64,000 nt of DNA from Candidatus Kaiserbacteria bacterium RIFCSPHIGHO2_01_FULL_53_29. GTDB taxonomy: Bacteria; Patescibacteriota; Minisyncoccia; Phycocordibacterales; UBA2100. The translations under genes and the position numbers were made by a program. Shown piece after piece: positions 27,265-52,700 of this stretch (position 1 is the first letter of the stretch; the number at the start of each line of letters is the position of its first letter). Location: positions 126,840 to 190,839 of the forward strand of contig MFKT01000009.1 in the NCBI GenBank assembly GCA_001781125.1, given 5' to 3'. The notes under the pieces were generated by a model, which was not told the origin of the DNA, ran no database searches, and saw only the letters and a program-made list of their open reading frames with translations.

Positions 27265-28185
27265 TCACTCGGCTTTTTCTTCAATGATGTTCCAATCATT
27301 CTTGCCATATCGCTTCGCGGCAACGATGGATGCCGCTGCAAGCAGCGCGAGCCCTGCAGCAGCCGCCCACCAGAGGTAGGAACTATTCGAGGCCGGTGCG
27401 GCCGCAGCGGCAGTGTCTGCGGTTGCCACTTGTTCGGGATCGGCTTCGGAAACGGGAACATCGGGAAGCGTGTTCGCAACATACGTGGGATCTGCCGGCG
27501 CAGATTTTGCTGCGGACTTTTTCGTGGTCGTCTTGGTCTTTGTTTTTGCTATCGGTGCTGCCTTCGGTGGAGGTGGTGGAATCACGTTGATAGACATAGC
27601 AGTGCCGGGGCTGGGTGAGCGTGCGATAAACGATGCATCTCCCGGTGCACGATTGAGAGAATTGCCGTCACCTGCGGCCCCAAGGGAGCTTTGATATGAA
27701 ACTGAATTGATATCGGTGCTGCTCGCAGTATGGAGCGCGATCGTCTCGCCGTCATTCCCCAAACTAAACGTGCTGTCAAAAAGTTGACCGGAAAAGTTTG
27801 GCCAATCTGCCCTGAACTTTGCCGAATTGTCTGCAATCACCGCATACGTACTTGGTGCAATCGAATCCCCGCCCGAAACGGCAGCGATCTTGTGATTCGT
27901 CCCGTTCTCAAACATCTTCCAACCGGTTAATTTCACGGGAGCTGTGCCAGAGTTAAATATTTCGATCCACTCGCGGCCCGAATCCGAGCCGCTCGAAAGA
28001 TCGTACATTATTTCGGTAATCACGACCTGCCCCGACGGTACCGTCGGGGCTTGTGCAAACGCTGCGCCTGGCATGAGCCCGACAATCACGAGTGCGCCGT
28101 AGAAAAATATATTACTGCGCAGAGTCGTCTCCGCCGCGCAGTACCCGCTGGAGTTCCTCGTGCGAGATCTCACCGTTTTGACCAT
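27265..28185 (-). CDS. Membrane-anchored lamin-tail-domain (LTD) protein with Lys/Thr/Pro-rich linker
   Basis: Within ORF 27265..28776, the real start is probably M at about 28185 (MVKTVRSRTRNSSGY...IFFYGALVIVGLMPGAAFAQA, a signal peptide). VVITEIMYDLSSGSDSGREWIEIFNSGTAPVKLTGWK is an LTD signature. The C-terminus (YLWWAAAAGLALLAAASIVAAKRYGKN) is a TM anchor. The first 197 codons of the ORF read a different frame of the upstream gene's tail. Confidence 0.6.
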   Translation of the reverse strand: MVKTVRSRTRNSSGYCAAETTLRSNIFFYGALVIVGLMPGAAFAQAPTVPSGQVVITEIMYDLSSGSDSGREWIEIFNSGTAPVKLTGWKMFENGTNHKIAAVSGGDSIAPSTYAVIADNSAKFRADWPNFSGQLFDSTFSLGNDGETIALHTASSTDINSVSYQSSLGAAGDGNSLNRAPGDASFIARSPSPGTAMSINVIPPPPPKAAPIAKTKTKTTTKKSAAKSAPADPTYVANTLPDVPVSEADPEQVATADTAAAAAPASNSSYLWWAAAAGLALLAAASIVAAKRYGKNDWNIIEEKAE

Positions 28186-29926
28186 TGGGTACAGTATCGC
28201 GTACAATAGCCGGACGTGGCATAGGTGTAACGTGAGGCTGTGGATTTTGCTGCGCCCCTCCGAAGCCGTTGGCGAAGGGGGGCTTCGTCTCGCCGAAGCC
28301 TCCAGCGGAGGCGGATTTCGCTGCACGACGCTCGCGCAGAATATCGGCAGGTGAGCGGATCGGCGCCGCATGGGAGGAGTCCCCCGCCTGCGGACGAGCT
28401 TGTGCGATCGCAGCGCGAAGCGCATTGCGTTGATCGTCTTCGCGCGACAGGGGCGCGGCGCGCGGCGTAAAATCTCCTGGTGCGGGACGATCTTCGCGCG
28501 GCGCAGGCACACTGTCGCGGGAACGGGCCCGTTCAGGGCGCGGCGACGCGTCGGCACGCGGTCGCGAGCCGTAGGTGCTGCGCTCCCCCGGTTCTTTCGG
28601 TTTTTTCGGCGGCGGCTGGAAGTCGACTTGTTTCTTGTTGACCGAGGCTTCAACCTCAGCGCGCGTGCGTCCGTATTGTGCGCGCGAGCTGCGCACGCAG
28701 TCGTCCCGATACGAGATCGCGGGGGTATCAATAGGCGGAATGGTTTCCGCAGAAAAAGGCTTGGAACCCACACCATCGATCATGAGCGTGAGATAAACTT
28801 GACCGATGCCGAGGCCCACGAGGTCTTCCGGCGTAAATGTCGGCTCGAAGACCGTCTCCAACACTTCCGCATCAAAGGGCCCGACACGAAATACGATGAG
28901 GGTCCCGATGTTGCCAAAGACCGCGTCCCTCACTTCCTCCTCCATCTGTTCGATATATTGATTGGCGAGTGTGAGCGCAAGCTTGTATTTGCGCGACTCG
29001 GAGAGAATGTCGGCAAAGGCTTCGTTCATCATTGATTGGAATTCATCGACGTAGAAATAAAAACGCGGTAATTTTGCCATCCGCACACTCGGCTCGTCCG
29101 CGCGCGACATCGCCGCCAGATAGATCTTCACGACGAGCATGCTGCCGAGGAGAGAGGCATTGGTCTCACCCATGCGACCTTTCGAGAGATTGACGATAAA
29201 GATCTTTTTTTCATCCATCATCTTGCGCAGATCAAAAGATGATTTCCCCTGCCCCACAATATTGCGGATCAGAGGGTTGGCGGTGAACTGACCGATCTTG
29301 TTTTGGATCGCGGGGGTCGCCTCACGTGTGTAGGTATCGGTGAAGGCGGCAAATTCCTCCACCCAGAATCCGCGCACGATCGGGTCGGTTGTTTTTTCGA
29401 TGACGGCAGCACGGAAGGTCTTGTTGGTGAGCATGCGATTCACATCTAAGAGTGTCGAATCAGGATATTCGAGAAGTGCAAGCAGGGTGTTTTGCAAAAT
29501 GTATTCCATTCTCGCGCTCCATGCATCTACCCAAATGCGCTTCAAGGCGCCCATCAAGCCAGAGACCACGAGATGACGCTTGTCGTAACCTACATCTTCC
29601 ATCACATTGAAGCCGATCGGGTGATCGGTATCAAACGGCGCGAAGTAGACGACATCTTTGATGCGATCGTGCGGGACGAAATCGAGCAGTTTTTCGGCGG
29701 TAGCGCCGTGCGGATCGATAAATGCAATACCTTCGCCATTCTGAATATCCTGTATCGCCATGTTCTCGAGCATGGTGGATTTACCCATGCCAGTTTTGCC
29801 GATGACGTAGATGTGCTTGCCGCGGTCAATACCTCGAATACCGAACATCTCGCGCTTGCCACGCGTGTGTGTAGCCGCAAAATACGTGACCCGGGTGTCA
29901 TCGTTTTTATGCTGATCGGGGGGCAT
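28112..29926 (-). CDS. VirD4/TraG/TraD-like (DUF87-type) coupling ATPase with a ~170-aa disordered Pro/Arg/Ala-rich C-terminal tail
   Basis: YVIGKTGMGKST is Walker A, and FYFYVDEFQSMM is Walker B. The C-terminal 170 aa are low complexity. Confidence 0.6.
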   Translation of the reverse strand: MPPDQHKNDDTRVTYFAATHTRGKREMFGIRGIDRGKHIYVIGKTGMGKSTMLENMAIQDIQNGEGIAFIDPHGATAEKLLDFVPHDRIKDVVYFAPFDTDHPIGFNVMEDVGYDKRHLVVSGLMGALKRIWVDAWSARMEYILQNTLLALLEYPDSTLLDVNRMLTNKTFRAAVIEKTTDPIVRGFWVEEFAAFTDTYTREATPAIQNKIGQFTANPLIRNIVGQGKSSFDLRKMMDEKKIFIVNLSKGRMGETNASLLGSMLVVKIYLAAMSRADEPSVRMAKLPRFYFYVDEFQSMMNEAFADILSESRKYKLALTLANQYIEQMEEEVRDAVFGNIGTLIVFRVGPFDAEVLETVFEPTFTPEDLVGLGIGQVYLTLMIDGVGSKPFSAETIPPIDTPAISYRDDCVRSSRAQYGRTRAEVEASVNKKQVDFQPPPKKPKEPGERSTYGSRPRADASPRPERARSRDSVPAPREDRPAPGDFTPRAAPLSREDDQRNALRAAIAQARPQAGDSSHAAPIRSPADILRERRAAKSASAGGFGETKPPFANGFGGAQQNPQPHVTPMPRPAIVRDTVPNGQNGEISHEELQRVLRGGDDSAQ

Positions 29927-29950
29927 GTCGCAATTATACCGTATCCCGCT

Positions 29951-31510
29951 TTAACGCGTAGCATCCGCCGGCGCGTACAGATCATGTACGAACGAGAGAA
30001 GTTTGCGAACATCCCCTTCCGCATCGCGTGAACCGAGCACAATGACTGCGATCGTACGATCTTGTGCCCCCACCTTGACGGTAAACGCCCCCGCATAGGT
30101 CTCCGCCGCTTCGTTTGTTTGGCCGACTTTTCCTCCAATGAGTTTCGCCGGAGCATTTTTAATGATGTTGAAGTTGCGAACATTCTTGAATGCCGGTGGT
30201 CCGTATGCGCTGTTTGCAATGTCACCAGAGGTAATGCCGAAGATAAAGCGACGATTTTCATAGATATGGCGCAGGAGGGTAAAGAGATCTTCAGGAGTCG
30301 AATAGTCGCCCTTCGCGCCTGAAGGATCAGAGAAAACCGTATGCGAGAGATTGATCGCTTTTGCTTTCTCATTCATGTAGGTCACGAACTGACTGCGGCC
30401 GCGCACCGATGCAAAGGTCTCCGCTGCTTCGTTGGATGATTCCTGGAGAAGTAGGAAGAGCAGGTCATACGCGCGCACCTCTGTCCCCGCTTTAAGGCGC
30501 GGTATCGAGGTGTAGACGAGTCCCTCCTTCGGCACGGTAACCGATTTGTCGAGATTGATGTATTCGGTGACGATAAGCGCAGAGACCAATTTTGATATCG
30601 ATGCGATGGGTGCTGCGACCGACGCACCCTTGCTCGAAAGTACGGTGCCGTTTTTCACGTCTGCGACAAGATACCCGGCAGCAGAAACCGGCGGCGCTTT
30701 GAGCTGATAGGTGAACGAGTCGCCCTGTGCTTCGACGTTGTACACGATCACCGGCATTCCGACCACGGTGAGATCGTAGACTTTCTTTGCATCATCAGTG
30801 GAAAGTCGGATGCAGCCACCCGAATACGATGAAGATACTGCTGTCCCGTCCGCATACGTGGGCCAGCCGTGAATGAAAAAGTTGCCCTGAAAATCGAGAC
30901 TCCATGGCTGATTCACCTCGCCGAATGTCGAGAAATGATTTCTCTCTTTCGATTGGATCTGATAGACGCCGGCAGGCGTTTCCCACCACGAACCTACTTT
31001 GCCCTTCGCAAGAACGGGAACCTCTATTTGCAAGACACCCCCGACATATACCACAAGCTTCATACTGGAAAGATTTGCATCAATGAACGACGCCTTTTGC
31101 TCCACGAGATTGCGCTTTACGTTTCTATAGTAATCGGGGTCCGAGAGCGCGGGCAATGCGCCGTATGTAAGAATGGGCCCCGTCGTCGATGCGGCCGATG
31201 AGGGAATGGATATCGAATAGACTACCGGCGGTTTGTACATGACGTACGCGGCAAAGGCGAGTGCCCCGAGTGCAGCAGCCCCAAGCACTGCGGTAGAAAT
31301 CGAAATATGCCATCGCCAAAGATCCGAACCATGCTCCGCGTGAGCAGGCATCTCTACGGCGGGCAAAACGGAACCCGCAGGCGCGAGCTTGGGCACAAGC
31401 TCCGCCTCGCCCCATCCCTCGAGCACCAGACGATTCACAATGATGCTGTCCGACATTCCCGTGCGTCGCAAATATTCTATACGCGGACTTGGATCTTCTG
31501 TTCGTGACAT
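29951..31510 (-). CDS. Fusion: L,D-transpeptidase (YkuD) domain + serine-type D-Ala-D-Ala carboxypeptidase (peptidase S11/PBP5-like) domain, N-terminal TM anchor
   Basis: The YkuD catalytic motif is FFIHGWPTYADG...SGGCIRLS. The S11 domain has ASISKLVSAL (SxxK), SSNEAAE (SxN) and GGKVGQT (KTG-like). Confidence 0.75.
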   Translation of the reverse strand: MSRTEDPSPRIEYLRRTGMSDSIIVNRLVLEGWGEAELVPKLAPAGSVLPAVEMPAHAEHGSDLWRWHISISTAVLGAAALGALAFAAYVMYKPPVVYSISIPSSAASTTGPILTYGALPALSDPDYYRNVKRNLVEQKASFIDANLSSMKLVVYVGGVLQIEVPVLAKGKVGSWWETPAGVYQIQSKERNHFSTFGEVNQPWSLDFQGNFFIHGWPTYADGTAVSSSYSGGCIRLSTDDAKKVYDLTVVGMPVIVYNVEAQGDSFTYQLKAPPVSAAGYLVADVKNGTVLSSKGASVAAPIASISKLVSALIVTEYINLDKSVTVPKEGLVYTSIPRLKAGTEVRAYDLLFLLLQESSNEAAETFASVRGRSQFVTYMNEKAKAINLSHTVFSDPSGAKGDYSTPEDLFTLLRHIYENRRFIFGITSGDIANSAYGPPAFKNVRNFNIIKNAPAKLIGGKVGQTNEAAETYAGAFTVKVGAQDRTIAVIVLGSRDAEGDVRKLLSFVHDLYAPADATR

Positions 31511-31541
31511 AAAAAATGAAGAGAGGTATAAGAATTATAGC

Positions 31542-31583
31542 AAAAAAAGCACGCAGCCGACCCCCGTTGGATCGGCAGCGTGC
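31542..31583 (-). terminator. Rho-independent terminator (minus strand)
   Basis: On the minus strand, GCACGCTGCCGATCCAACGGGGGTCGGCTGCGTGC forms a 12-bp GC-rich stem with one mismatch, followed by TTTTTTT. It sits downstream of the 31596..31904 ORF and just upstream of the start of the L,D-transpeptidase gene. Confidence 0.45.
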
Positions 31584-31595
31584 AGTCGTACTCCG

Positions 31596-31904
31596 TTAGC
31601 TGTTATACACTTGAATCTGCGTCGTATTGGTTACGATGCATATCAAGCGACCGTGCTCGAGCGCGCAGGCAGATTCGGCCTCCATCGGAAGAACCGGAGA
31701 AGTCGTGTCTACCCAGAACGCGAAAGCTACAGCCGTTGCCAGCCCGAAAGTGCAGGACGGCAGAAAGAAGACCGCAATCGCTACGCCCCACTCGAACCTC
31801 AGGAAGCGATCACGCCTTCGATACGCAACTGCCGTGAACAAAGTTGCGATTACCACACTCAACGCAACACTACACACTGCGCATAGCAAGAAAGTCCGCA
31901 GCAT
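31596..31904 (-). CDS. Small hypothetical membrane protein
   Basis: 102 aa with two or three hydrophobic helices, followed by a terminator hairpin. There are no recognisable motifs. Confidence 0.3.
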   Translation of the reverse strand: MLRTFLLCAVCSVALSVVIATLFTAVAYRRRDRFLRFEWGVAIAVFFLPSCTFGLATAVAFAFWVDTTSPVLPMEAESACALEHGRLICIVTNTTQIQVYNS

Positions 31905-32028: not shown

Positions 32029-33159
32029 TTACTGATATTGAATGTATATCGGTTGCGGCGTGAGCTTCAGAACCTGTGCGGGCGCGAATATGCCCTCCGA
32101 CGGCGGAAGGGTGTCGTTCTTGTAGAAAATCTTAAATCCGGTGAACTGCACCGGCTCCGCGGCGACGACGTTGGTGTAGGTGCCGATCTTTTTTGCTTGC
32201 GATCCCCAGCCGTCCATATCCATCACGATCTGCACTTCCGGCAGCGGCGTGATCTGTTTGTAGTGCGTCACCATATCTTGCGTAAAACGATGCACGACGA
32301 GGATTTTCGGCGTGAGATCATTGGCTCGCACAAGGCCCGCCAAATAATTTGCCGCGTAGTTGATATCCGCGGCATCGAACGAACCGATCACCGTGCCCGG
32401 TTTGGCGCCGGTTTTCATAGAAAACTCCGGGTCGATACCCAGATGCACGTTCTGCATCGCAAGATACTTTTCGTATTGTGGAAGCTCTTTCTGGAGCGTA
32501 CTCAAACCCACCTGAAAGTCGAGAAAGACGAGCCCGTGTATCTGAGCGGCCAGTTCGAGCGCCTTGTCGATCTGGCTGTCGGGCATGCGCAAACGGTACA
32601 TGCCGTCGGCTTGCGGCGCCTCCTGTGCGGTTACAACAATGTAGTGAATTGCCGGAATGACAGGAGTCGATGGGTCCGCCGCTGCCCACTGTGCACTTGC
32701 CGATGCGAGTTTTTGCAACATGACGTCGGTCGGATACTGACCCAATGCGCCCATGCCTTTGGAATAAAAATTTCCATAGTACGCAACGACACGATTGAAC
32801 GGAAGGATGGCGCCCGCGTTCGGATAGACGGTTTTCACCGGCCACCGTGGGCGCGGAGAGGTCGTTGAGGCCACAGTGTCGTCAAGAAACGCAGCGTACC
32901 AAGGGCTCGATGTCGCCACGGCCCCTAGCTCCAGTAATTTTTTGTTGTAGGCGGCGATATCAAGCGGGGGCGCAGACACGCGAGTATTCAGCGCGGACGC
33001 GGGTGTAGAGGTCGCCGTGCGGATAAAGCTGACTCTCGGCGCGGATGCGGCTGCTACCGCGACGAACCCGGCAACGAAAAGTCCGGTACCGATGAGCAGC
33101 GCAAAACTTCTATGCCGCTTCTTCATGCTGGGTCGAGGAGTGTGAAGTGCTTTCTGCAT
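32029..33159 (-). CDS. Hypothetical exported/membrane-anchored protein (possible TIM-barrel glycoside-hydrolase-like fold)
   Basis: 376 aa. An N-terminal basic region is followed by a hydrophobic anchor (FALLIGTGLFVAGFVAVAAASA). The function is unknown. Confidence 0.5.
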   Translation of the reverse strand: MQKALHTPRPSMKKRHRSFALLIGTGLFVAGFVAVAAASAPRVSFIRTATSTPASALNTRVSAPPLDIAAYNKKLLELGAVATSSPWYAAFLDDTVASTTSPRPRWPVKTVYPNAGAILPFNRVVAYYGNFYSKGMGALGQYPTDVMLQKLASASAQWAAADPSTPVIPAIHYIVVTAQEAPQADGMYRLRMPDSQIDKALELAAQIHGLVFLDFQVGLSTLQKELPQYEKYLAMQNVHLGIDPEFSMKTGAKPGTVIGSFDAADINYAANYLAGLVRANDLTPKILVVHRFTQDMVTHYKQITPLPEVQIVMDMDGWGSQAKKIGTYTNVVAAEPVQFTGFKIFYKNDTLPPSEGIFAPAQVLKLTPQPIYIQYQ

Positions 33160-37538: not shown

Positions 37539-37802
37539 ATGCAGAAGACCGAGAAGAAACCAAAATTCGATTTTGAGGAGTTGAAGGCGGCGGCGACGAG
37601 CCTGAACGGAAAGACCCGGAAAAAAGTCTTTGAGGAATATTTCGAGCGCTTCGAGGAATTCCCCTCGTACCTCTTCGACAACACCAACGGCATCGATAGT
37701 CGCTTGCAAGAAACCATCCAGGATCTTAGGAACGACCCCGAGACGACCAAGCCGATGCTCAAAGGTATCGACGTCCTTATGCAGCGTCTCCCATCGCTTT
37801 GA
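37539..37802 (+). CDS. Small hypothetical protein
   Basis: 87 aa, charged. It has no recognisable motifs and overlaps the 3' end of the convergent gene by 26 bp. Confidence 0.25.
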   Translation: MQKTEKKPKFDFEELKAAATSLNGKTRKKVFEEYFERFEEFPSYLFDNTNGIDSRLQETIQDLRNDPETTKPMLKGIDVLMQRLPSL

Positions 37803-40299
37803 CGAGCGCCACGAATTGATCCCCCTTCTCCTCGAAATTCTTCCACAGTCCATAGCTCGGTGAAGCGCAGGAGAGAAGACACGCCGAGCCGTGCGGAGTA
37901 TTTTTGTACGCAAACTCGACCGCTTCTTTCATGTCCGAGGTTTCAAAAATATTCAAGCCTGTGCGATCTGCAAACATTCTTTTCCCGCTTTCCGGAAAGA
38001 GCACGATGTTTTTGACGTTGCGCGAACGAACTTCCTTTTCTAGTTCGGCGAAATCATACCCTCTGTCGTTTCCACCGAGAAATAGTGTCCCGACATCCGG
38101 TATCGCGCGAAGCGCAGCGATGGTGGACTCGGGCGTCGTCGATATTGCGTCGTCATAAAATAGGATTCCGTTGAACTCTCCGACCAGTTCGAGACGATGC
38201 GGAAGGCCTTTGAATGAACGTACTGCCTCTTCTATTTTTTTGTCGGGAACATCAAAGAGCCGGGCGACGGTAACGGCGGCCCTGACGTTATCGATATTGT
38301 GCTCGCCAAGCAAAGAAATTACTTTCGCATCAAACGGCAGATCGACAAACGGCATAGCTTTCGACCTTCCATCCTTGACCCATTTCTGCAATTCCGGAAC
38401 ACGTGGGTTATAGACAAATACATCTTCGCCTTCTTGGAATCGAATGATATTTTTCTTTGCCTCATAGTATCGCTCGACACCATCGTGATAATCCATGTGA
38501 TCGGGAAAGAGGTTCGTCACGACCGCAATGTGGGGCGAGAATTCGATGTCATCGAGCTGATAGCTCGAAAGTTCGAGAACTGAAATATCTTCTTCCGAAT
38601 GTTGCGACAAGAGATCGAGCATGGGAACTCCTATATTTCCCGCGAGATGCACTTTCAGTCCTGCATTTTTGAGAATGACATATATCAGGGATGCGGTCGT
38701 ACTTTTCCCCTTGCTTCCGGTAACGCCAATCGTCTTTCCCTTCCATTCTGAGAAAAAAATATTGGTCGCCGTTGTGTACTGTGCGCGAACTTTCTTTTTG
38801 GGGATACCCGGCGTCTTAAGAGCGATGTCGTAGCGATCCTGCTCGTCAAGATACTTCGTATCGGTCGCCTCGTCTGCAACACCGATGTCGAGATTCGGAT
38901 ACGTTTTGTGCAGATATGCTTCGCTCGCCAATCCTTCCTTTCCGTGGCCCAAAATAAGGGTATTTTTCATCCCGCAAAATCTAAAGCGCGTCGGCACTGT
39001 TAGAGCTTGCTGTGCATGCGTAGTCATTTTGATCAATGTCTCTCCATCCTCGATCCGCGGAAAAAAGGTTTGCACCACAGGAGAGTCCGCAAACGTATTA
39101 CGAATGAGGTACAGAGCAGCTTGTGCTTCATCAAAGGTACCGACGCAATCAAACGGCTTCATAGTTCCAAATCCGAGGATATCTTGGAAGAGGGGCTCGA
39201 GCTTCGGGTCGTTCAAGAGATCACGACCGAAGATATTGATAAGCTCCTTCCTCTCGATGAACGGCGCCAAAATCAAAAAGACGAACGCACACTTCGGACA
39301 TTCACAACACCATAGACCCTTCGGCCGCTTCGCCTCGTCAATTCTGAACGCCTTATTGCAGCTCGTGAAATGCTGGAAGTAGTTCGAGTGCCGCGCGAAC
39401 AGTTCGGCAATTCGTATTTCATAGAACGGTCGCAGAATTGAAAAATACGTTACCGAGCTCGTAACATATTCTCGAATGTAGTTCTGGAACAATGTTTCGA
39501 ATTCCGCAGATTTACTCCACTGATGATTTACGACCTCTCCGTTATGTTCGACGTTGCCGAAGTTGCTACTGTGCTCGTTGCCGACCACAACGTACTGGTA
39601 GTCGTAGAGTACCGCTGCAAGTGTTCCGAGAAATGCATAGATCGCGGAAATTGGAATATGGCCCGCAAAACTTCCCGGAAGTGGCTGGAATATTTTCTCG
39701 TCGAGAATGCGGAGGATTTTGAGCGATGTGATCCCGGCAACCTCGCACACTTCATCAACTATCTCGTGCGAGCGGTAGGTCTCGACAATAAATCCCGTGC
39801 AGAGATATTTTTGTTCTTTGAGCAACTCGATCGCAACGATTGAGTCTTTCCCGCCGCCGATACCGACGAGCACGCGGTTTTTTCGTACAAATTTAAACGG
39901 CGTCGGCGTCGGCACGTCGTCCGCGTACGGAAAGCGTATCCGCTCCCCCAAATCAAGATTGTTGCGGTACGCGAATTCTCCGAGGCCTTTGCGGTATATG
40001 GTGTTCCAAAAATCCGCTTGCGCCTTTGTAAGCTTTTGCTGCACGCGGATTTCCGGCGGACAATAGAGCTTGTAGTAGCTGATGCCAATCATCAGATGAA
40101 TATCATCTAACAATGCATCCAAAAGCGCGCTCGGCACATCAGTGAGATACGGTGCCGGTAGTACCACTACTTCACTGAACGAAATGGCCTTGCCATCTTC
40201 AAATCCCATTTCATAGTTACATACAATTTTCTTTCCTTCACGTGAAAATGTACGGGAAGTGAACCTGAAATAGGCCGCTTTTGGGTCCATGCGAGCCAT
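37777..40299 (-). CDS. murD: Fusion: N-terminal PP-loop (N-type ATP pyrophosphatase) domain + C-terminal UDP-N-acetylmuramoyl-L-alanine--glutamate ligase (MurD)
   Basis: The N-terminal ~420 aa have VLVGIGGGKDSIVAIELL (PP-loop SGGxDS-like) and a Cys cluster (WCCECPKC). The C-terminal ~420 aa are a MurD ligase: the Rossmann LILGHGKEGLASEAYL, the P-loop IGVTGSKGKSTTASL, and LELSSYQLDD. Confidence 0.75.
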   Translation of the reverse strand: MARMDPKAAYFRFTSRTFSREGKKIVCNYEMGFEDGKAISFSEVVVLPAPYLTDVPSALLDALLDDIHLMIGISYYKLYCPPEIRVQQKLTKAQADFWNTIYRKGLGEFAYRNNLDLGERIRFPYADDVPTPTPFKFVRKNRVLVGIGGGKDSIVAIELLKEQKYLCTGFIVETYRSHEIVDEVCEVAGITSLKILRILDEKIFQPLPGSFAGHIPISAIYAFLGTLAAVLYDYQYVVVGNEHSSNFGNVEHNGEVVNHQWSKSAEFETLFQNYIREYVTSSVTYFSILRPFYEIRIAELFARHSNYFQHFTSCNKAFRIDEAKRPKGLWCCECPKCAFVFLILAPFIERKELINIFGRDLLNDPKLEPLFQDILGFGTMKPFDCVGTFDEAQAALYLIRNTFADSPVVQTFFPRIEDGETLIKMTTHAQQALTVPTRFRFCGMKNTLILGHGKEGLASEAYLHKTYPNLDIGVADEATDTKYLDEQDRYDIALKTPGIPKKKVRAQYTTATNIFFSEWKGKTIGVTGSKGKSTTASLIYVILKNAGLKVHLAGNIGVPMLDLLSQHSEEDISVLELSSYQLDDIEFSPHIAVVTNLFPDHMDYHDGVERYYEAKKNIIRFQEGEDVFVYNPRVPELQKWVKDGRSKAMPFVDLPFDAKVISLLGEHNIDNVRAAVTVARLFDVPDKKIEEAVRSFKGLPHRLELVGEFNGILFYDDAISTTPESTIAALRAIPDVGTLFLGGNDRGYDFAELEKEVRSRNVKNIVLFPESGKRMFADRTGLNIFETSDMKEAVEFAYKNTPHGSACLLSCASPSYGLWKNFEEKGDQFVALVKAMGDAA

Positions 40300-46727: not shown

Positions 46728-49700
46728 TCATGGCGTTTCCGTTGGTGCCGGAATTTGTTCTGGAGCGGGCTCCGGTGCCGGAGCGGGCGCGGGTTCTGGC
46801 GCGGGCTCCGGAGCGGGTTCTGGCGCGGGAGCTGGCGCGGGAGCTGGCTCCGGCGAAGGTGCGGGCTCGGGGGCGGGAGACGCTTCTTGCGGCGCGGCCT
46901 CGGCCGCGCCGCCTCCCGTATCTGCCGGAGCTTCTTCAACAGGGGCGTCTGCGGACGGCTCCTCGGCAGGCGAGTCCGGAGTCTCGCTTGGCGTGTCTCC
47001 CGCCGGTTCTTCCGCGGGCGGCGATTCAGGAGCAGGGGTTGGTTCTGGCACGGGTTCTGGCGCGGGAGCGGGAACGGGCGAACTTCCTCCCCCACTTGCT
47101 GCGGCAGCTGCCGATTGCGCACTCTGTGTGCCATTTTTGTCGAGCAGCGCCTTAAATTCCTCGCGCGTCACGCAGACATCTTCGAGGCAGAGCTTTTTGA
47201 CCGTGAGCTCATCGCCCGTTCCCCGCTTAAAGACGAGCTCGTCGGTCGTGAAGATGCGCGCATAGACGCTGTCGAAGATGCCGGCCACCGCGTAGATCGC
47301 GCTGTTGTACGCACGAACTACCATACCACCAAGACCCTCGAGCGCACTCTTCAGCCCATCCGATGCATCCGCGAATGCCGCGTACCACGGCGTCGTGGTC
47401 GCGAATTCTTCCCGCGGCGTCGTCGTCGCGTTCACTATTTCCGCCACGCTCGTTGTCGCGACAAGCGCGTCGAATTTCGCGTCGAGTTCTTGGATAGCGC
47501 CGATGGCAGGCGCGATTAGCTGTGTGTAGTCAAGCCCGAGGTAGCCGTTCTCAGGGTCAACGATAGAGATGGTATTGGGGAAATACTGCTGTACATTCTG
47601 CGCGAGAAAGCCAAGCTGAGTGGTGGAAGCCCCTATCATGTTGAAGGAGACTGGATTGAGTTGCAAAATTTTGGACAGCGAGCTGCCGAGAGAGGAGATG
47701 TTCTCCTTAAGCCGCTCGTCGGACACGTCGGTGATGGTGCCGGTGTACTCGATGTCTCCTGTGACGTCGAGCGCGACGGAGGGATCGGTCATGGCGATGC
47801 CGACGTTGCCTGCGTTGGTCACGATGAGGTGCGTCGTCGAAGAGCCGATGTAGAAGGAAGGAGACGTGTCTACGCCGCTCGGGAGGATGGAGAGGCGGCC
47901 CCATGGCGTCGAGGTGCCAATGCCGACGTTGCTCGAGAAGACGGCTCGACCGTCGACGGTGAGAGAAGGTGTGGAAGAAGCGGCTGTTGATGTCGCACTC
48001 TGGCCGATGCGGAGGCCGGTGCGGACGAACATTTCTTCCGCCATCGTGTATCCGGCATCAGAGACAGTGAGGTACGGGTAGTCGGCGCTGTTGCCGATGT
48101 GGAGGAGCGGCGAGGAGAATTGGTAGGTGCTGAGTGAGTCATTGAAGTCATCAATAAACGCCACGCGGTTGGGCGAGAGGGCGGCAAGAGCGGGAGTATC
48201 CTCTATACCGGAAATAGTGAGGCTGCTTCCTACTTGAGACCAAGTTGAGCCGTTAAATTCATAGACTGTGAGTAAATCGTGGTCTGAATGGAAGAACGCC
48301 ACGCGGTTCGGTGACATCGCCGCAAGCGCAGGAAAAGCCGCGTGATAGGCTGTAAGAGCCAGTGAGCTCCCGACTTTTGTCCATGTCGTGCCATTAAATT
48401 CGTATGTCGAAAGGCTATCAAGAGTTCGATCAGTGTACGCAATGCGGTTTGAATTAAGCGCTGCGATGGCGCCTTGAGAAAAACTTCCCGACGGTGTAAT
48501 GCTACTCCCGATAGATGACCATACGGATCCATTAAACTCATATGCTTGCACGACGCCAGTATCGTTATCAAGGAGAGCGATACGATTTGGGGCCAGTGCG
48601 GCAAGACTTGGAGTCTGACCTATACTACTCACTGTCAATCCACTACCTATTTGAGACCAACTAGAAACTCCGAATTCGTACACTCGGAGCGAGTCGTTAT
48701 TCGCGTCAAGATATGCGATGCGACTGGGAGAAAGCGCGGCAATCCCAACAACTTGATTACTGATCGTTATTGCAAGAGCGCTTCCCTGTTGAGTCCACGA
48801 GGCTCCGTCGAAAACATATTTTCTGAGTGAACCGCTACCGCTTACGAATGCCACAGAGTTGGGCGAAAGTGTCGCTATTGTAGGATAAACATGCGATAGA
48901 GATAGCGTGTTCCCCACCTGCGCCCACGTCTGTGCGAGTCCTGCTGATGAGATGGTCAATCTTCCTGTCGTCGAAGCATTGGAGCCGATGCCGAAATTTC
49001 CATTTGCCGAAAGATACATCGACGATGTGGCGGTGAGTGTGGTGCCGACGTACGAGAGCGTCTGCCCTGCGGTGCCGGATGGGAGTGAATCTCCGGCGAT
49101 GAGACACGAGCCAGAGATGGAGAAACATCCTCCCGCCAGATCAATGCCTCTTGCAAATGTGGAGGTCGCGGCAGTGCCGGTCACATTGAGGTATGGAGTA
49201 TCGAGTCCGTTGTAGATAGTGGAGGTGGCGGAGGCGTAGAAGTTGGCGGATGCGTTGATGGAGAAAAGCGAACCGGGAGTCGTCGTCCCGATACCGACGT
49301 TTCCAGCGTTGGTGACGATGAAGTGTGTCGTGGATGAACCGATGTAGAAAGAGGGGTCAGTGCCAACGCCGCTCGGGAGGATGGAGACCTTGCCCCATGG
49401 AGTGGAAGTCCCGACACCGACGTTGCTCGAGAAGACGGCTCGACCGTCGACGGTGAGGGATGGTGTGGAAGAAGCGGCTGTTGATGTCGCACTCTGGCCA
49501 ATGCGCAGACCGGTGCGGACGAACATCTCTTCCGCCATCGTGTATCCGGCATCAGAAACAGTGAGGTACGGATAGTCGATGCTGTTGCCAACGTGGAGGA
49601 GCGGCGAGGAGAATTGGTAGGTGCGGAGGGAGTCGTTGGTGACGTCAATGTATGCGACGCGGTTGGGCGAGAGCGTTGCTAGCGCAGGGATCGCGACGCC

Positions 49701-52700
49701 CGAGATCGAAAGGCTGCTTCCGACTTGGGACCACGAGGCGCCGTTCCACTCATACACCGTAAGTGAGTCGTTGGTCGCGTCGATTAAGGCGACGCGCGAA
49801 GGCGAGAGAGCGGTCAGCGCCGGGCTCGTGGCGGACGCGATCGTGAGGCCGCTGCCGATCTGCGACCAGGTTGAGCCGTTGAATTCATAGGTACGCAGGG
49901 ATGTATTGGCGTCGTCGAGGAACGCGATACGATTCGGTCCGAGCGCCGCCATGCCCGCGGCGGCCACGCCGCCTCCGATGGTCGTACTCGTCCCGACTTG
50001 ATTCCAAACAGAGCCGTTGAACTCGTACGTGCGCAATTGATCGTTCGTCGTTTCAATGAACGCTATGCGGTTCGGTGAGAGGCCGGCGAGTGCCGGAGGT
50101 GTCCCCGATGTGATAGTGAGACCGGTTCCGATCTGTGACCAGGTAGAGGTAGCGCTGAATTCATATACGCGCAGCTCATCGTTAGTGGCGTCAATAAAGG
50201 CGATGCGGTTCGGTGAGAGCTCCGCCATCGCTGCTGCCGCAGACGTGGTGATGCCCATACTGACACCAAGTTGCGACCAACTGACGCCGTTCCATTCGTA
50301 CGCCGCGAGGACGTTGTTGTTGTTCTCAAAGAGGGCAACACGATTCGGCGATAGCGCGGCCATGGCAGGACCGCCGGCGCCTGTCACCGTCTTTCCACTC
50401 CCCACCTGCGCCCACGTCTGCGCGAGTCCTGCTGAGGAGATGGTCAGCTTCCCTGTCGTCGAGGCGTTCGAGCCGATGCCGAAGTTGCCTGAGGCGGACA
50501 TATAGAGCGTCGAGGTGGCAGTGAGTGTGGTGCCATCCTCTTGATAGTAGGGCATGTATCCCGCAGTTCCGGAAACTACCGTCCCACCGGAGTTGATCAT
50601 CAAGCACGTGCCCGCCACAGAGAAACAGCCGCTGGAGATATTCACGCCGTTGGCGAACGTGGAAGAGGCTGAGGTACCGGTGAGGTTAAGGTATGGAGTG
50701 TTGAGACCGTTGTAGATGGTGGAGGTTGCGGAGGCGTAGAAGTTGGCGGAGCCGTTAACGGAGAAAAGCGAAGCAGGGGTTGAACTGCCGATGCCCACAT
50801 TCCCGGTCGACGTCATGATGAAGTGCGTTGCGGTCGAGGAGCCGATGAGGAAAGAGGGGTTCGTCCCGTTCCCCGGATCGATGGAGACCTTGCCCCACGG
50901 CGTCGACGTGCCAACACCGACGTTGCTCGAGAAGAGCGCCCGGCCGTCGACGGTGAGGGATGGAGTAGAAGATGCAGCTGTCGAGGTGGCGCTCTGGCCG
51001 ATGCGGAGAGTGGTCCGCACGGACATCTCCTCCGCCATCGTGTGACCGGCGTCGGAGACGGTGAGGTAGGGGTAGTCCGCGCTGTTGCCGATGTGGAGGA
51101 GGGGGGAGGAGAATTGGTACGTGCGAAGCTCGTCGTTGTTCACATCAATGTAGGCAACACGGTTTGTCGACATCCCAGCGAGTGCCGGGATCGCAACCGT
51201 CGAGATCGACAGGTTGCTGCCCACCTGGGTCCAGCCGGAACCATTGAATTCATACGTCTGCAATACGTCGTTCGTCGCGTCGATGAAGGCGACACGGTTT
51301 TGGGACAGGGTCGCGAGCGCGGGAGACGTTGCCGACGCAATAGTCAGTCCGCTTCCCTGCTGTATCCACGTGGAGCCGTCAAATTCATACACGCGCAAGG
51401 AAGTGGCATTGTCATCGATAAACGCGATACGGTTTGGCGATAGCGTCGTCATTGCGGCTGCGGTCATGCCCGTGAACGAGACTCCGGTTCCCACCTGCGA
51501 CCACGTCGAGCCATTGAGTTCGTAGACGCGAAGCGAATCGTTGGTCGCGTCGATGAACGCAACGCGATTTGGCGAAAGCGCAGTGAGCCACGGACTGCCC
51601 ACCGTAGAGATAGCAAGCTCCGTTCCCACTTGCGACCACGTCGACGTCGCGCTGAGTTCATACACGCGCAGCGCATCATTCGTCCCGTCAATGAATGCGA
51701 CGCGGTTCGGCGAGAGCGCAGCCACCGCTGCCGCGGCGGCAGTTGAAATGGAGTAGCTCGGTCCGACTTGCGCCCAGGCTGCGCCGTCGAACTCAAAGTT
51801 CTTGAGCACATTGTTGTTGTTTTCAAATACCGCGACTCTGTTCGGTGAAAGGACAGTGATCGTAGGACCGCCGGAGCCCGAGATCGCTTTACCACTTCCG
51901 ATCTGCTGCCACGTCTGAGCGAGTCCCGCTGAGGAGATCGTGAGCCGTCCCGTGGTGGAAGCGGTGACACCGATACCTACTTTTCCTGCTGTTGAAAGGT
52001 AGAGCGATGATGTGGCCGTGAGCGCGGTACCGGTGTTTTCGTAGAACGGGAAGTAGCCTTGAGTTCCTGAAGTGATCGTTCCGCTTCCCTCAGTAAGACA
52101 GCTGCCATTCAAGGCGAAACACCCGCCGGAGAGATCGATGCCGTTGGCGAAGGTGGAGCTCGCGCTCGAGCCCGTGATGTTGAGGTATGGCGTCTCGAGA
52201 CCGTTGTAAATAGTGGAGGTGGCGGAGGCGAAGAAGTTGGCGGAGCCGTTGATGGAAAAGAGCGAGCTCGGCGTCGTTGTGCCGATGCCGACGTTGCCCG
52301 TATTCGTGACTATGAGATGCGCAGCGGTTGTGGAGCCGATGAAGAGTGAAGGCTGTGTGTTGTTGCCACTCACATCTATGGAGAGCCTTCCCCACGGTGT
52401 CGACGTGCCGATACCGACGTTACTTGAGAAGACTGCGCGGCCGTCGACGGTGAGTGCGGGGGTGGAACTCGCCGCGGTCGAGGTTGCGCTCTGCCCGATG
52501 CGGAGTTCTGTACGAACATTGAGTGCTTCTGCACTTGTGAGTCCAGCATCGGAAACGGTGAGGTACGGGTAGTCACTGCTGTTGCCGATGTGGAGGAGTG
52601 GGGAGGAGAATTGGTAGGTGCGGAGGGAGTCATTCGTGACATCGATAAACGCGACGCGATTCGGTGAGAGGGCGGCGAGAGCGGGAATGGCTACCGTTGC

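What the first reader, a model, noticed from the sequence alone, without database searches (positions are those of the whole stretch)
29951..31510. Single polypeptide combining an L,D-transpeptidase (YkuD) and a D,D-carboxypeptidase (S11) domain
The catalytic motifs of both domains are intact: HG…SGGCIRLS, and SxxK / SxN / KxG. DD-carboxypeptidases make the tetrapeptide donors that L,D-transpeptidases need, so fusing the two would channel substrate toward 3-3 cross-links. The gene sits next to the LTD protein and the TraG-like ATPase and is preceded by a terminator, so it probably has its own promoter.
Basis: partly seen in the sequence, partly recalled or inferred. Interest (0 to 1): 0.55.

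Follow-up and report, generated by a model that had tools for sequence, protein, structure and literature searches.

The report
Fused L,D-transpeptidase and PBP-type D,D-peptidase
This gene from an uncultivated ultra-small (CPR/Parcubacteria) bacterium joins two cell-wall enzymes that normally work one after the other as separate proteins; hundreds of related species share the fusion, nobody has studied it, and its penicillin-binding half carries an unusual active-site change.

Summary
ORF 29951-31510 (-) encodes a 519-aa protein. It has an N-terminal cytoplasmic mini-domain, one membrane helix, a YkuD L,D-transpeptidase domain (aa 142-256; His214, Cys233) and a Peptidase_S11 domain (aa 271-489; Ser304-x-x-Lys307, Ser358-x-Asn360, Lys461-Val-Gly463). 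Both domains score above Pfam's thresholds.

It is not a one-off. The architecture occurs in at least 385 species-level genomes; every one named to a lineage is Patescibacteria/Parcubacteria. Databases annotate it only generically, and I found no paper on it.

- The third PBP motif in the window's close relatives is K-V/I/N-G, almost never K-T/S-G. This removes the hydroxyl that binds the substrate or beta-lactam carboxylate.
- Stand-alone S11 genes near the fusion in related genomes keep K-T-G.
- Across the wider family, either active site has been lost repeatedly while the two-domain fold is kept.

Best reading: a membrane-anchored, extracytoplasmic, bifunctional stem-peptide enzyme. The S11 half trims pentapeptides to tetrapeptides and the YkuD half uses them for 3-3 cross-links. 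The coupling is inferred, not shown.

The upstream terminator and a TGnTATAAT promoter are real sequence features. The link to the TraG-like ATPase and LTD genes is synteny only.

Verdict: new variant of a known kind, moderate interest.

The parts
29951..31510 (-). Complete ORF, 519 aa plus stop: the YkuD-S11 fusion protein
   Evidence: ORF list. An identical protein, P0001, is in the database. Homologs align from residues 1-5, which supports the ATG at 31510 as the start.
31385..31489 (-). N-terminal three-helix mini-domain (aa 8-42), predicted cytoplasmic, no known family
   Evidence: AlphaFold helices 8-16, 21-30 and 35-42 with block pLDDT 88-96. The consensus RxDDPxxxIxxLRxxGMxDxxIxxRLxLEGW is conserved, and the region aligns in 42 of 80 loci. 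No Pfam or PDB match.
31235..31312 (-). Single transmembrane anchor (aa 67-92, WHISISTAVLGAAALGALAFAAYVMY)
   Evidence: Hydrophobic stretch read from the sequence, modelled as helix 71-92. The N-in/C-out topology is inferred from the need for the catalytic domains to reach peptidoglycan.
30743..31087 (-). YkuD L,D-transpeptidase catalytic domain (aa 142-256)
   Evidence: Pfam PF03734, 60.6 bits against a 23.4 cut-off. A profile search of the PDB finds LdtMt5, Ldtfm and LdtMt3.
30869..30871 (-). Codon CAC = His214 (catalytic His of the HG motif)
   Evidence: Read in the DNA. Invariant in 120/120 homologs.
30812..30814 (-). Codon TGC = Cys233 (nucleophile in S-G-G-C-I-R-L)
   Evidence: Read in the DNA. 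Present in 119/120 homologs.
30701..30742 (-). Inter-domain linker (aa 257-270). Low model confidence, but it contains conserved F266 and invariant Y268
   Evidence: pLDDT is 56 for block 261-270. Conservation list of alignment A1.
30044..30700 (-). Peptidase_S11 (low-molecular-weight PBP) domain (aa 271-489; the fold extends to about aa 511), with no PBP5_C domain
   Evidence: Pfam PF00768, 72.9 bits against a 27.6 cut-off. PDB sequence hits 4rye, 6muq and 3mfd. Foldseek probability 1.0 to 4rye, 3mfd and PBP5.
30590..30601 (-). Motif 1, S304-I-S-K307 (SxxK; TCG...AAA)
   Evidence: Read in the DNA. Aligned to STIK of 4rye. S and K are each 120/120.
30431..30439 (-). Motif 2, S358-S-N360 (SxN)
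   Evidence: Read in the DNA. Aligned to SGN of 4rye. 119/120.
30122..30130 (-). Motif 3, K461-V-G463: non-canonical (K-V-G in place of K-T/S-G)
   Evidence: AAA GTC GGC read in the DNA. Aligned to GGKTGYT of 4rye. In the closest 120 homologs the middle residue is I 73, V 43, T 1. In 80 species-level loci it is V 39, I 21, N 16, T 2.
31542..31583 (-). Intrinsic terminator of the upstream transcription unit: stem-loop 31583-31549 plus U7 at 31548-31542
   Evidence: RNA fold -29.4 kcal/mol, z = -3.67, 0/200 shuffles as stable. Sequence.
31534..31542 (-). Extended -10 promoter-like element TGCTATAAT, ending 23 nt before the ATG
   Evidence: Read. Only 7 TATAAT hexamers lie on the minus strand in 64 kb, and 4 of them sit within 65 nt upstream of minus-strand gene starts in the 28-34 kb region. 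No -35 box. This is a consensus match, not proof of function.

Best explanation
The gene encodes a membrane-anchored, extracytoplasmic, bifunctional peptidoglycan stem-peptide enzyme that is characteristic of Parcubacteria (CPR).

Shown by sequence and model:
- A short cytoplasmic helical domain, one TM helix, then two catalytic domains on one chain.
- A YkuD domain with the His214/Cys233 dyad.
- A short (PBP7/DacB2-like) S11 penicillin-binding domain with Ser304/Lys307, Ser358/Asn360 and Lys461/Gly463.

Inferred mechanism:
1. Ser304 is acylated at the D-Ala4-D-Ala5 bond of pentapeptide stems on nascent glycan strands near the membrane. D-Ala5 is released and a tetrapeptide remains.
2. Cys233 of the adjacent YkuD domain attacks the residue3-D-Ala4 bond of that tetrapeptide. 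D-Ala4 is released and a thioester forms.
3. The acyl group is transferred to the side-chain amine of residue 3 on a neighbouring stem, giving a 3-3 cross-link. Hydrolysis to a tripeptide is a side reaction.

The fusion guarantees 1:1 stoichiometry and co-localisation of donor production and donor use. In E. coli this is achieved only by a weak non-covalent PBP5-YcbB contact.

Replacing the KTG threonine by Val/Ile/Asn is a hallmark of the window's close relatives (76 of the 80 species-level orthologs). It probably changes how the S11 site handles the terminal carboxylate, through altered leaving-group preference, product release or lower beta-lactam affinity. The S11 domain may also serve as the stem-binding module that this LDT otherwise lacks, since the protein has no LysM, PG_binding or SPOR domain.
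For: Domains and catalytic residues:
- Domain assignments are above the curated cut-offs.
- Catalytic residues are aligned to solved enzymes and nearly invariant in 120 homologs. They are intact in 78 of 80 species-level orthologs, which indicates purifying selection on both sites.
- The model has pLDDT 86 with a TM helix and two folded catalytic domains.
- The S11 fold is confirmed.
- The closest solved relatives of the YkuD domain are true L,D-transpeptidases (LdtMt5, Ldtfm, LdtMt3). No Csd6/Pgp2-type LD-carboxypeptidase appears at E <= 0.01.

Literature:
- LDTs use tetrapeptide, not pentapeptide, donors, and a class C PBP supplies them (PMC5089857; PMC13344953).
- YcbB binds PBP5 with a Kd of about 2 uM (PMC6478713).

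Other support:
- A depositor-named fusion of a Zn DD-carboxypeptidase-family domain with an ErfK domain exists in the PDB (4xxt). If the depositors' description holds, the same pairing arose with an unrelated carboxypeptidase fold.
- The organism makes peptidoglycan: MurC and a MurL-MurD fusion lie in the same window.
Against: - No enzymology or muropeptide data exist for any member, and I found no paper on the architecture.
- Motif 3 lacks the Thr/Ser hydroxyl that makes bidentate H-bonds to the carboxylate in PBP5 (PMC6478713). DD-carboxypeptidase efficiency is therefore uncertain.
- Related genomes carry a separate canonical K-T-G S11 gene 1.5-4 kb from the fusion, which could be the real housekeeping DD-carboxypeptidase.
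- The nearest curated family by score is the PBP7-type endopeptidase, although it falls far below cut-off.
- In the wider family about 41-43 of 140-150 cluster representatives have lost the S11 Ser/Lys, and about 15 have lost the YkuD His/Cys. These losses arose through several independent events. One YkuD-dead member sits in the orthologous genomic slot. The two activities are therefore separable.
- The inter-domain geometry is not confidently modelled: linker pLDDT about 56, pTM 0.65.
Confidence: 0.5

Rival explanations
1. Cross-link remodelling enzyme. The S11 domain acts mainly as a DD-endopeptidase (PBP7-like) that opens existing 4-3 cross-links. This leaves a tetrapeptide on the former donor stem, and the YkuD domain immediately re-links it as a 3-3 bond.
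For: - The best NCBIfam hit is the PBP7 endopeptidase model NF008668 (67.6 bits), ahead of DacD at 43.7 and DacA at 21.8.
- PBP7-type structures 6muq and 6azi are among the top PDB hits.
- Like PBP7, the domain lacks a PBP5_C stalk.
- A changed carboxylate-binding residue (K-V-G) would fit a leaving group other than free D-Ala.
- A separate canonical K-T-G S11 enzyme that could do the carboxypeptidase job exists in related genomes.
- Endopeptidases are needed for YcbB-mediated synthesis in E. coli (bioRxiv 10.1101/2021.02.12.430937, listed).
Against: - The score is far below the PBP7 equivalog cut-off of 294.
- Equally good hits are DD-carboxypeptidases: Mtb DacB2 (4rye), B. subtilis DacB (3mfd) and Listeria PBPD2.
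- Sequence alone cannot separate carboxypeptidase from endopeptidase activity in S11.
Confidence: 0.15
2. Sequential trimming enzyme. The S11 domain removes D-Ala5 and the YkuD domain acts as an LD-carboxypeptidase that removes D-Ala4. Stems are shortened to tripeptides, which limits cross-linking or recovers D-Ala, and no cross-links are made.
For: - LDTs have intrinsic LD-carboxypeptidase activity: YcbB makes tripeptide in vitro (PMC5089857).
- YkuD-fold enzymes can be dedicated LD-carboxypeptidases. Csd6 and Pgp2 are examples from my own knowledge; see also the T6SS effector preprint listed.
- The protein has no accessory PG-binding domain that might position an acceptor strand.
Against: - The profile search of solved structures retrieves transpeptidases (LdtMt5, Ldtfm, LdtMt3) and no Csd6/Pgp2-type enzyme at E <= 0.01.
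- The GC-I-R-L motif with its conserved Arg is the transpeptidase-type motif.
Confidence: 0.15
3. The S11 half is mainly a non-hydrolytic stem-peptide binding or regulatory module that targets or gates the YkuD transpeptidase. Its catalytic residues are retained here but contribute little turnover.
For: - About 41-43 of 140-150 family representatives keep the fold but have lost the Ser/Lys nucleophile pair, so a non-catalytic role can sustain the domain. In one such member (P0131) Pfam no longer detects S11.
- The K-T-G threonine is missing in this clade.
Against: - In the window's own clade S304, K307, S358, N360, K461 and G463 are each conserved in 117-120 of 120 sequences and in 78 of 80 species. 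That pattern is hard to explain without catalysis.
- YkuD-dead members keep a fully intact S11 site (K-I/V-G-E-T), so the S11 site is functional in its own right.
Confidence: 0.1
4. Artefact: two adjacent genes joined by a frameshift, an assembly error or a chance ORF.
For: None found.
Against: The same co-linear architecture, with a conserved linker (F266, Y268, P273), occurs in the top 120 of more than 1,100 hits, in 348 cluster representatives at E <= 1e-30, and in at least 385 species-level genomes from many independent studies.
Confidence: 0.01

Closest known systems
E. coli PBP5 (DacA) + YcbB/LdtD beta-lactam bypass pathway
   Same: An S11 class C PBP is paired with a YkuD L,D-transpeptidase. 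In E. coli PBP5 makes the tetrapeptide donor that YcbB needs (PMC5089857), and the two proteins interact weakly, with a Kd of about 2 uM (PMC6478713).
   Different: - In E. coli these are two separate proteins; here they form one chain.
- PBP5 has K-T-G and a C-terminal stalk domain with an amphipathic anchor. This protein has K-V-G, no PBP5_C domain and an N-terminal TM anchor.
- YcbB has large scaffold, PG-binding and capping subdomains that are absent here.
Clostridioides difficile DacA/DacC + Ldt1-5
   Same: DD-carboxypeptidases supply tetrapeptides to LDTs, which make most of the cross-links (PMC13344953).
   Different: The proteins are separate, and the DD-carboxypeptidases are canonical. 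The organism is a cultured Firmicute for which muropeptide data exist.
PDB 4xxt (Clostridium), named by its depositors a fusion of a Zn-dependent amidase/peptidase of the cell-wall hydrolase/DD-carboxypeptidase family with an ErfK-family domain
   Same: A YkuD/ErfK domain is covalently joined to a domain of a DD-carboxypeptidase family. Its YkuD part is the second-best PDB match to this family's YkuD profile (E 6.6e-06).
   Different: The partner is a metallopeptidase-type domain, not a serine S11 PBP fold, so it would be a convergent solution. I know its function only from the depositors' title and did not analyse it further.
Short S11 penicillin-binding proteins: M. tuberculosis DacB2/Rv2911 (4rye, 4p0m), PBP7-type DD-endopeptidases (6muq, 6azi), B. 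subtilis DacB (3mfd), Listeria PBPD2 (5zqa)
   Same: These are the best sequence and fold matches for aa 271-511, at 24-28% identity and Foldseek probability 1.0. SxxK and SxN are aligned.
   Different: All are stand-alone enzymes with K-T-G. None carries a YkuD domain, and no PDB chain covers both halves of this protein (TMq about 0.4).
Gram-positive and mycobacterial membrane-anchored LDTs (Ldtfm 1zat/3zg4, LdtMt5 6d5a/4z7a, LdtMt3 6d4k)
   Same: They have the YkuD catalytic domain with a His/Cys dyad and GC-[IV]-R-type motif. From my own knowledge they also carry an N-terminal membrane tether.
   Different: They carry Ig-like or other accessory domains instead of a PBP domain. The residue two positions before the Cys is usually His (S-H-G-C) but is an invariant Gly here (S-G-G-C).

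Membership tests
YkuD / L,D-transpeptidase catalytic domain (Pfam PF03734) | Profile match above the curated gathering score | tested here: met
   60.6 bits against a 23.4 cut-off, aa 142-256.
YkuD / L,D-transpeptidase catalytic domain (Pfam PF03734) | Catalytic His and Cys in the H-G ... G-C-[IV]-R-[LM] motif | tested here: met
   H214-G215 and G232-C233-I-R-L236. H is 120/120, C 119/120 and R 119/120 in homologs. Aligned to HG / GC of solved LDTs.
YkuD / L,D-transpeptidase catalytic domain (Pfam PF03734) | Extracytoplasmic location, giving access to peptidoglycan | tested here: inconclusive
   A single hydrophobic helix at aa 67-92 lies upstream of the domain. The orientation is inferred, not predicted by a dedicated tool.
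YkuD / L,D-transpeptidase catalytic domain (Pfam PF03734) | Formation of 3-3 cross-links (or another LD-transpeptidation) from tetrapeptide donors | not testable with these tools
   Needs enzymology or muropeptide analysis.
Peptidase S11 / class C low-molecular-weight PBP (Pfam PF00768) | Profile match above the curated gathering score, and a PBP/beta-lactamase fold | tested here: met
   72.9 bits against a 27.6 cut-off. Foldseek probability 1.0 with TMt 0.75-0.80 to 4rye, 5tr7, 6muq and 6azi.
Peptidase S11 / class C low-molecular-weight PBP (Pfam PF00768) | Motif 1 SxxK and motif 2 SxN | tested here: met
   S304-I-S-K307 and S358-S-N360, aligned to 4rye STIK / SGN. Conserved in 119-120 of 120 homologs.
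Peptidase S11 / class C low-molecular-weight PBP (Pfam PF00768) | Motif 3 K-T/S-G, whose hydroxyl binds the substrate or beta-lactam carboxylate | tested here: not met
   The motif is K461-V462-G463. Lys and Gly are kept and the hydroxyl is lost. This holds across the window's close relatives: I 73 / V 43 / T 1 of 120, and V 39 / I 21 / N 16 / T 2 of 80. The role of the Thr is described in PMC6478713.
Peptidase S11 / class C low-molecular-weight PBP (Pfam PF00768) | DD-carboxypeptidase activity (release of the terminal D-Ala) | not testable with these tools
   Needs an enzyme assay. Sequence cannot separate carboxypeptidase, endopeptidase and transpeptidase activities within S11.
PBP7/PbpG DD-endopeptidase (NCBIfam NF008668 equivalog) | Score at or above the equivalog cut-off | tested here: not met
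   67.6 bits against a cut-off of 294. It is the best-scoring NCBIfam model but falls far below threshold.
DacA/DacC/DacD-type PBP5/6 (NCBIfam equivalogs; S11 plus the PBP5_C stalk) | Equivalog score and presence of the C-terminal PBP5_C domain | tested here: not met
   DacD scores 43.7 against 610, DacC-type 29.7 against 765 and DacA 21.8 against 694. There is no PBP5_C hit, and the protein ends about 8 residues after the S11 fold.
Csd6/Pgp2-type YkuD-fold LD-carboxypeptidases | Closer sequence relationship to these enzymes than to transpeptidases | tested here: not met
   Of the 12 PDB sequences found by the YkuD-domain profile at E <= 0.01, the characterised ones are LD-transpeptidases; the rest are uncharacterised ErfK-family entries (5bmq, 4xxt). 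No Csd6 or Pgp2 was found. This is a sequence-level test only.

The most novel reading that the evidence does not exclude
The fusion is a self-contained 3-3 cross-linking module that is insensitive to beta-lactams other than carbapenems. It would be the principal, or in some lineages the only, peptidoglycan cross-linker of Parcubacteria. On this reading, replacing the KTG threonine by Val/Ile/Asn is an adaptation. It would either hand the tetrapeptide product directly to the neighbouring Cys site or lower beta-lactam acylation. The repeated survival of 'half-dead' variants would show that the two domains work as one obligate structural unit, with one domain binding the stem while the other does the chemistry.
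Probability: 0.12. Interest if true: 0.7.

Novelty: new variant of a known kind. Interest (0 to 1): 0.42.

Why it matters
A natural fusion of two enzymes is classic "Rosetta-stone" evidence that they work together. Here it independently supports the DD-carboxypeptidase-to-LD-transpeptidase pathway worked out in E. coli, E. faecium and C. difficile. It also suggests that 3-3 cross-linking is a routine part of wall synthesis in a huge, uncultivated bacterial radiation whose cell-wall chemistry is unknown.

The family offers a compact (about 420-aa ectodomain), genetically linked system for three questions:
- How donor supply and LD-transpeptidation are coupled.
- What the KTG hydroxyl contributes, since nature has replaced it with V, I or N many times.
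- What a catalytically dead PBP or YkuD domain does.

If the module proves sufficient for cross-linking, it would be a minimal PBP-transpeptidase-independent cross-linking device. That is relevant to beta-lactam resistance mechanisms and to how ultra-small cells build their walls.

Tried and rejected
- **AlphaFold-database fold search (afdb50).** The library was not installed. I therefore could not list named full-length structural matches or test for members outside the CPR by fold.
- **The only named non-CPR hit.** P0091 is labelled 'Acetobacteraceae bacterium', but it is encoded exactly on contig L016, which is titled Candidatus Parcubacteria. I treat the label as unreliable. Many 'uncultured Candidatus Saccharibacteria' titles on bulk-assembled bins are probably generic labels too.
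- **Functional link to the TraG-like ATPase and LTD protein.** The order RsmI - small TM protein - (DUF4015 or a 376-aa protein) - fusion - ATPase - LTD holds in the closest clade (L001-L021) and in one divergent lineage (L081). It is absent from L022-L080, where scpA, scpB and a stand-alone S11 follow instead. I rejected it as evidence of shared function.
- **The 376-aa upstream protein.** I tested whether it is a diverged DUF4015 glycosyl-hydrolase-like protein, because DUF4015 fills the same slot elsewhere. BLASTP found nothing, hhalign gave probability 0.2%, and there are no Pfam, NCBIfam or PDB hits. It remains unknown.
- **The 102-aa ORF at 31596-31904.** It lies between that gene and the fusion and has no Pfam hit and no tblastn match in any of the 80 loci. 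It may be an orphan or spurious.
- **The N-terminal mini-domain and the pre-YkuD segment.** No Pfam or PDB similarity, even at E = 10.
- **The consensus promoter/terminator scan.** It found neither the terminator nor the promoter. Direct folding and a hexamer census did.
- **Literature.** Searches for the architecture, for LDTs in Patescibacteria/CPR and for PBPs in Parcubacteria returned nothing relevant.
- **Paralogs in the window.** None found by tblastn.
- **Distance between the two active sites.** I could not measure it, because model coordinates are not exposed.
Full report
**1. The observation**

The interval 29951-31510 is exactly one minus-strand ORF of 519 aa.
- Pfam places a YkuD L,D-transpeptidase domain at aa 142-256 (60.6 bits, cut-off 23.4).
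- It places a Peptidase_S11 domain at aa 271-489 (72.9 bits, cut-off 27.6). A weaker overlapping Beta-lactamase2 hit is as expected for this fold.
- I located the quoted motifs and verified the codons in the DNA: H214-G215, S230-G-G-C233-I-R-L-S237, S304-I-S-K307, S358-S-N360 and K461-V-G463.
- HMMER alignments to solved S11 enzymes (Mtb DacB2 4rye, a PBP7-type endopeptidase 6muq, B. subtilis DacB 3mfd) put these residues on the catalytic SxxK, SxN and KTG positions.
- An AlphaFold model built on 59 homologs has mean pLDDT 86.1. It shows a three-helix N-terminal mini-domain (aa 8-42), a disordered stretch, a helix at aa 71-92 that covers the hydrophobic segment 67-92, and then the YkuD and S11 folds joined by a low-confidence linker.
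- Foldseek against the PDB returns S11 PBPs at probability 1.0. No chain covers both halves (TMq about 0.4).

The one correction is that 'KxG' hides a departure from the canonical K-T/S-G.

**2. Transcription signals and neighbours**

- Upstream of the gene, the sequence GCACGCUGCCGAUCC-AACG-GGGGUCGGCUGCGUGC followed directly by U7 (31583-31542) folds at -29.4 kcal/mol, z = -3.67, and no shuffle folds as well. This is a good intrinsic terminator that the simple scan missed.
- Its U-tract runs into TGCTATAAT (31542-31534), an extended -10 consensus that ends 23 nt before the ATG.
- TATAAT is rare in this window. There are 7 on the minus strand in 64 kb, and four of them lie just upstream of minus-strand gene starts between 28 and 34 kb. 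The 'own promoter' idea is therefore reasonable, though unproven.
- The TraG/VirD4-like ATPase (PF10412, PF02534, PF12696) starts 24 nt after the stop. It has its own TATAAT 6 nt before its ATG and no terminator in between. The LTD protein follows it.

**3. How common it is**

- The word-indexed search found 1,125 proteins at E <= 1e-5. The best 120 (48-100% identity) all carry PF03734 plus PF00768. Where named, they come from Kaiserbacteria, Paceibacterota or Parcubacteria, under generic names such as 'L,D-transpeptidase family protein' or 'D-alanyl-D-alanine carboxypeptidase'.
- The exhaustive search of 1.84 billion cluster representatives gave 348 hits at E <= 1e-30. Most of the best 150 align as one co-linear stretch across both domains.
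- A scan of one genome per GTDB species, using just two family-specific peptide patterns, found 385 encoding loci. The best 80 come from 80 different assemblies, all CPR or unclassified MAGs: Kaiser-, Colwell-, Lipton-, Wolfe-, Taylor- and Nomurabacteria, and Paceibacterota.
- The single 'Acetobacteraceae' label belongs to a protein encoded exactly on a contig titled Parcubacteria.
- No NCBIfam model comes near its cut-off, and the full-text searches found no paper describing the architecture.

The fusion is real, old and widespread in this lineage. It is present in databases but uncharacterised.

**4. Conservation of the active sites**

In the 120 closest homologs the catalytic residues are almost invariant: H214 120, C233 119, S304 120, K307 120, S358 and N360 119, K461 117, G463 118. 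In the 80 species-level orthologs, 78 have all of them. Both sites are therefore under purifying selection in the window's clade.

**5. The S11 domain is not canonical**

- The middle residue of motif 3 is I (73), V (43) or T (1) in the closest 120. In the 80 species-level loci it is V 39, I 21, N 16 and T 2.
- In PBP5 this threonine hydroxyl makes bidentate hydrogen bonds to the carboxylate of meropenem, the group that mimics the terminal D-Ala carboxylate (PMC6478713).
- In 13 related loci a stand-alone S11 gene lies 1.5-4 kb downstream, typically after scpA and scpB. Eleven of these carry a canonical GGK-T-G, while the fused domain in the same 13 loci has K-V/I-G in 12.
- The fused domain is only 27-36% identical to those neighbours. 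That is about as distant as it is from Mtb DacB2.
- By score it sits among the short S11 enzymes that lack the PBP5_C stalk. That group includes both DD-carboxypeptidases (DacB2, DacB, PBPD2) and PBP7-type DD-endopeptidases.

Sequence cannot decide between these activities. The fused domain has clearly diverged from the housekeeping enzyme.

**6. Reciprocal degeneration in the wider family**

State of the best 150 cluster representatives (33-63% identity to the window protein):

| State | Count |
|---|---|
| All catalytic motifs intact | 76 |
| YkuD His/Cys kept (NFFIHGWPY...SGGCIRL is strikingly conserved), S11 Ser and/or Lys lost | 43 |
| SxxK kept, another S11 motif changed or sequence truncated | 15 |
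| S11 fully intact (always K-I/V-G-E-T), YkuD Cys or His lost | 17 (three are fragments) |

- Among the 76 intact members, motif 3 is KTG 27, KNG 13, KVG 12, KIG 9 and KSG 9.
- Restricting to the 140 near-full-length sequences gives 84 intact, 41 S11-dead and 15 YkuD-dead.
- A rough NJ tree with Fitch parsimony suggests about 13 changes of the S11 state and about 7 of the YkuD state. That means one large S11-dead clade plus scattered events (a rough estimate only).
- In an S11-dead example (P0131) Pfam no longer detects S11 at all.
- A YkuD-dead example (P0152) sits in the same syntenic slot as the window gene: RsmI - small protein - DUF4015 - fusion - TrwB-type ATPase - LTD/PKD protein. It is therefore a positional ortholog, not an extra copy.
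- Some members add a third PGA_cap (CapA-like) domain.

Two conclusions follow. First, the two chemistries are separable, which argues against strictly obligate channelling. Second, the two-domain body persists without one of them, which suggests the domains also serve each other structurally, for example in binding or positioning stems.

**7. Mechanism**

Shown: the domain folds, the catalytic residues and their conservation, the membrane anchor, and the presence of a peptidoglycan pathway in the organism (MurC and a MurL-MurD fusion in the window).

Established for separate proteins elsewhere:
- LDTs accept tetrapeptide but not pentapeptide donors.
- A class C PBP makes those donors (PMC5089857; PMC13344953).
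- YcbB and PBP5 interact weakly (PMC6478713).

Inferred for this protein: Ser304 removes D-Ala5, Cys233 then takes the tetrapeptide, releases D-Ala4 and transfers the stem to a neighbouring residue-3 amine to form a 3-3 cross-link. The fusion enforces co-localisation and stoichiometry at the membrane surface.

The closest solved relatives of the YkuD domain are transpeptidases rather than Csd6/Pgp2-type LD-carboxypeptidases, which mildly favours cross-linking over pure trimming. PDB 4xxt, described by its depositors as a Zn DD-carboxypeptidase-family domain fused to an ErfK domain, looks like a convergent version of the same pairing.

I give the specific coupled model about 0.5. The rivals are endopeptidase-plus-LDT remodelling (0.15), sequential trimming to tripeptide (0.15), an S11 half that is mainly a binding module (0.10), and artefact (0.01).

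**8. Context**

- The fusion lies in a conserved chromosomal stretch: ArsR-like, RsmI, a 76-aa membrane protein, an unknown 376-aa protein, the fusion, the TraG-like ATPase and the LTD protein. This stretch is flanked by a 27-kb surface-glycan cluster and by murC.
- The order holds in L001-L021 and in L081 but not in L022-L080. I read it as synteny in small streamlined genomes, not as a functional operon with the ATPase.
- The slot immediately upstream is filled either by a DUF4015 putative glycosyl hydrolase (17 loci plus L081) or by the unrelated 376-aa family (8 loci plus the window). These two show no detectable homology.

**9. Verdict**

The gene is not an oddity of this genome. It belongs to a large Parcubacteria family that annotation pipelines already recognise at the domain level.

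What is new:
- A serine-PBP/LDT fusion has not been described or tested.
- Its PBP half has systematically lost the KTG hydroxyl, while canonical paralogs persist.
- The family shows repeated reciprocal inactivation of its two active sites.

I rate it a new variant of a known kind, with moderate interest (0.42).

Noticed in passing
window 37777-40299 (-): An 840-aa protein that looks like a fusion of MurL and MurD. MurL is the UDP-MurNAc-L-Ala-L-Glu epimerase; NF041275 matches aa 9-415 at 350 bits, below its 700 cut-off. MurD (TIGR01087) matches aa 448-834 at 270 bits, above its 212 cut-off. This is a second peptidoglycan-pathway fusion in the window. It hints that D-Glu enters the stem by the MurD2/MurL route rather than through a glutamate racemase.
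   Followed up: partly
window 46728-62771 (-): A giant 5,347-aa ORF in a region of strong positive GC skew. It has an N-terminal HTH_17 hit, Kelch/beta-propeller and LVIVD repeats, and a Peptidase_S74 (endosialidase chaperone) domain near the C-terminus. It is probably a giant surface or adhesion protein.
   Followed up: partly
window 28112-29926 (-) and 27265-28185 (-): A TraG/VirD4/TrwB-like coupling ATPase is followed by a secreted LTD-domain protein with a weak ExeM-nuclease-like hit. The pair recurs next to the fusion in the closest clade and in the divergent locus L081, where the LTD protein also has PKD domains. It may be a conserved CPR DNA-handling or uptake module. The LTD ORF as listed overlaps the ATPase gene, so its real start is probably internal, for example near 28185.
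   Followed up: partly
window 29933-29938 and upstream of 33340 (-): TATAAT boxes end just 6 nt before the ATG of the ATPase gene and of the 76-aa membrane-protein gene. The latter has the form TGCTATAAT. This suggests leaderless transcripts in this organism.
   Followed up: no
window 32029-33159 (-): A conserved 376-aa protein with an N-terminal hydrophobic segment lies upstream of the fusion; only the 102-aa orphan ORF at 31596-31904 intervenes. It has no Pfam, NCBIfam or PDB match. In other genomes a DUF4015 putative glycosyl hydrolase fills the same slot, and the two show no detectable homology (hhalign probability 0.2%).
   Followed up: partly
window 31596-31904 (-): A 102-aa hydrophobic ORF lies between the 376-aa gene and the fusion and ends just before the terminator. 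It has no Pfam hit and no tblastn match in any of the 80 related loci, so it is either a lineage-specific orphan or not a gene.
   Followed up: partly
window 1-27250: A cluster of about 27 kb for surface-glycan or nonulosonic-acid-type biosynthesis. It contains many GT4 glycosyltransferases, two CMP-sugar cytidylyltransferases (PF02348), a DegT aminotransferase, HisF/HisH-like genes, Polysacc_synt_2, several epimerases and an ABC exporter. Nearly all genes are on the minus strand.
   Followed up: partly
P0204, P0229, P0255 (family members, not in the window): Some YkuD-S11 proteins carry a third domain, PGA_cap (CapA-like). It is C-terminal in the members of about 780 aa and N-terminal in P0255.
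   Followed up: no
L028, L031, L032, L034, L036, L044, L048, L050, L057, L064, L069, L070, L078: In a more distant clade the fusion gene is followed by scpA, scpB and a stand-alone S11 gene. The stand-alone gene has K-T-G in 11 of the 13 loci. From my own knowledge, this gene order recalls the scpA-scpB...dacB neighbourhood of Bacillus subtilis.
   Followed up: partly
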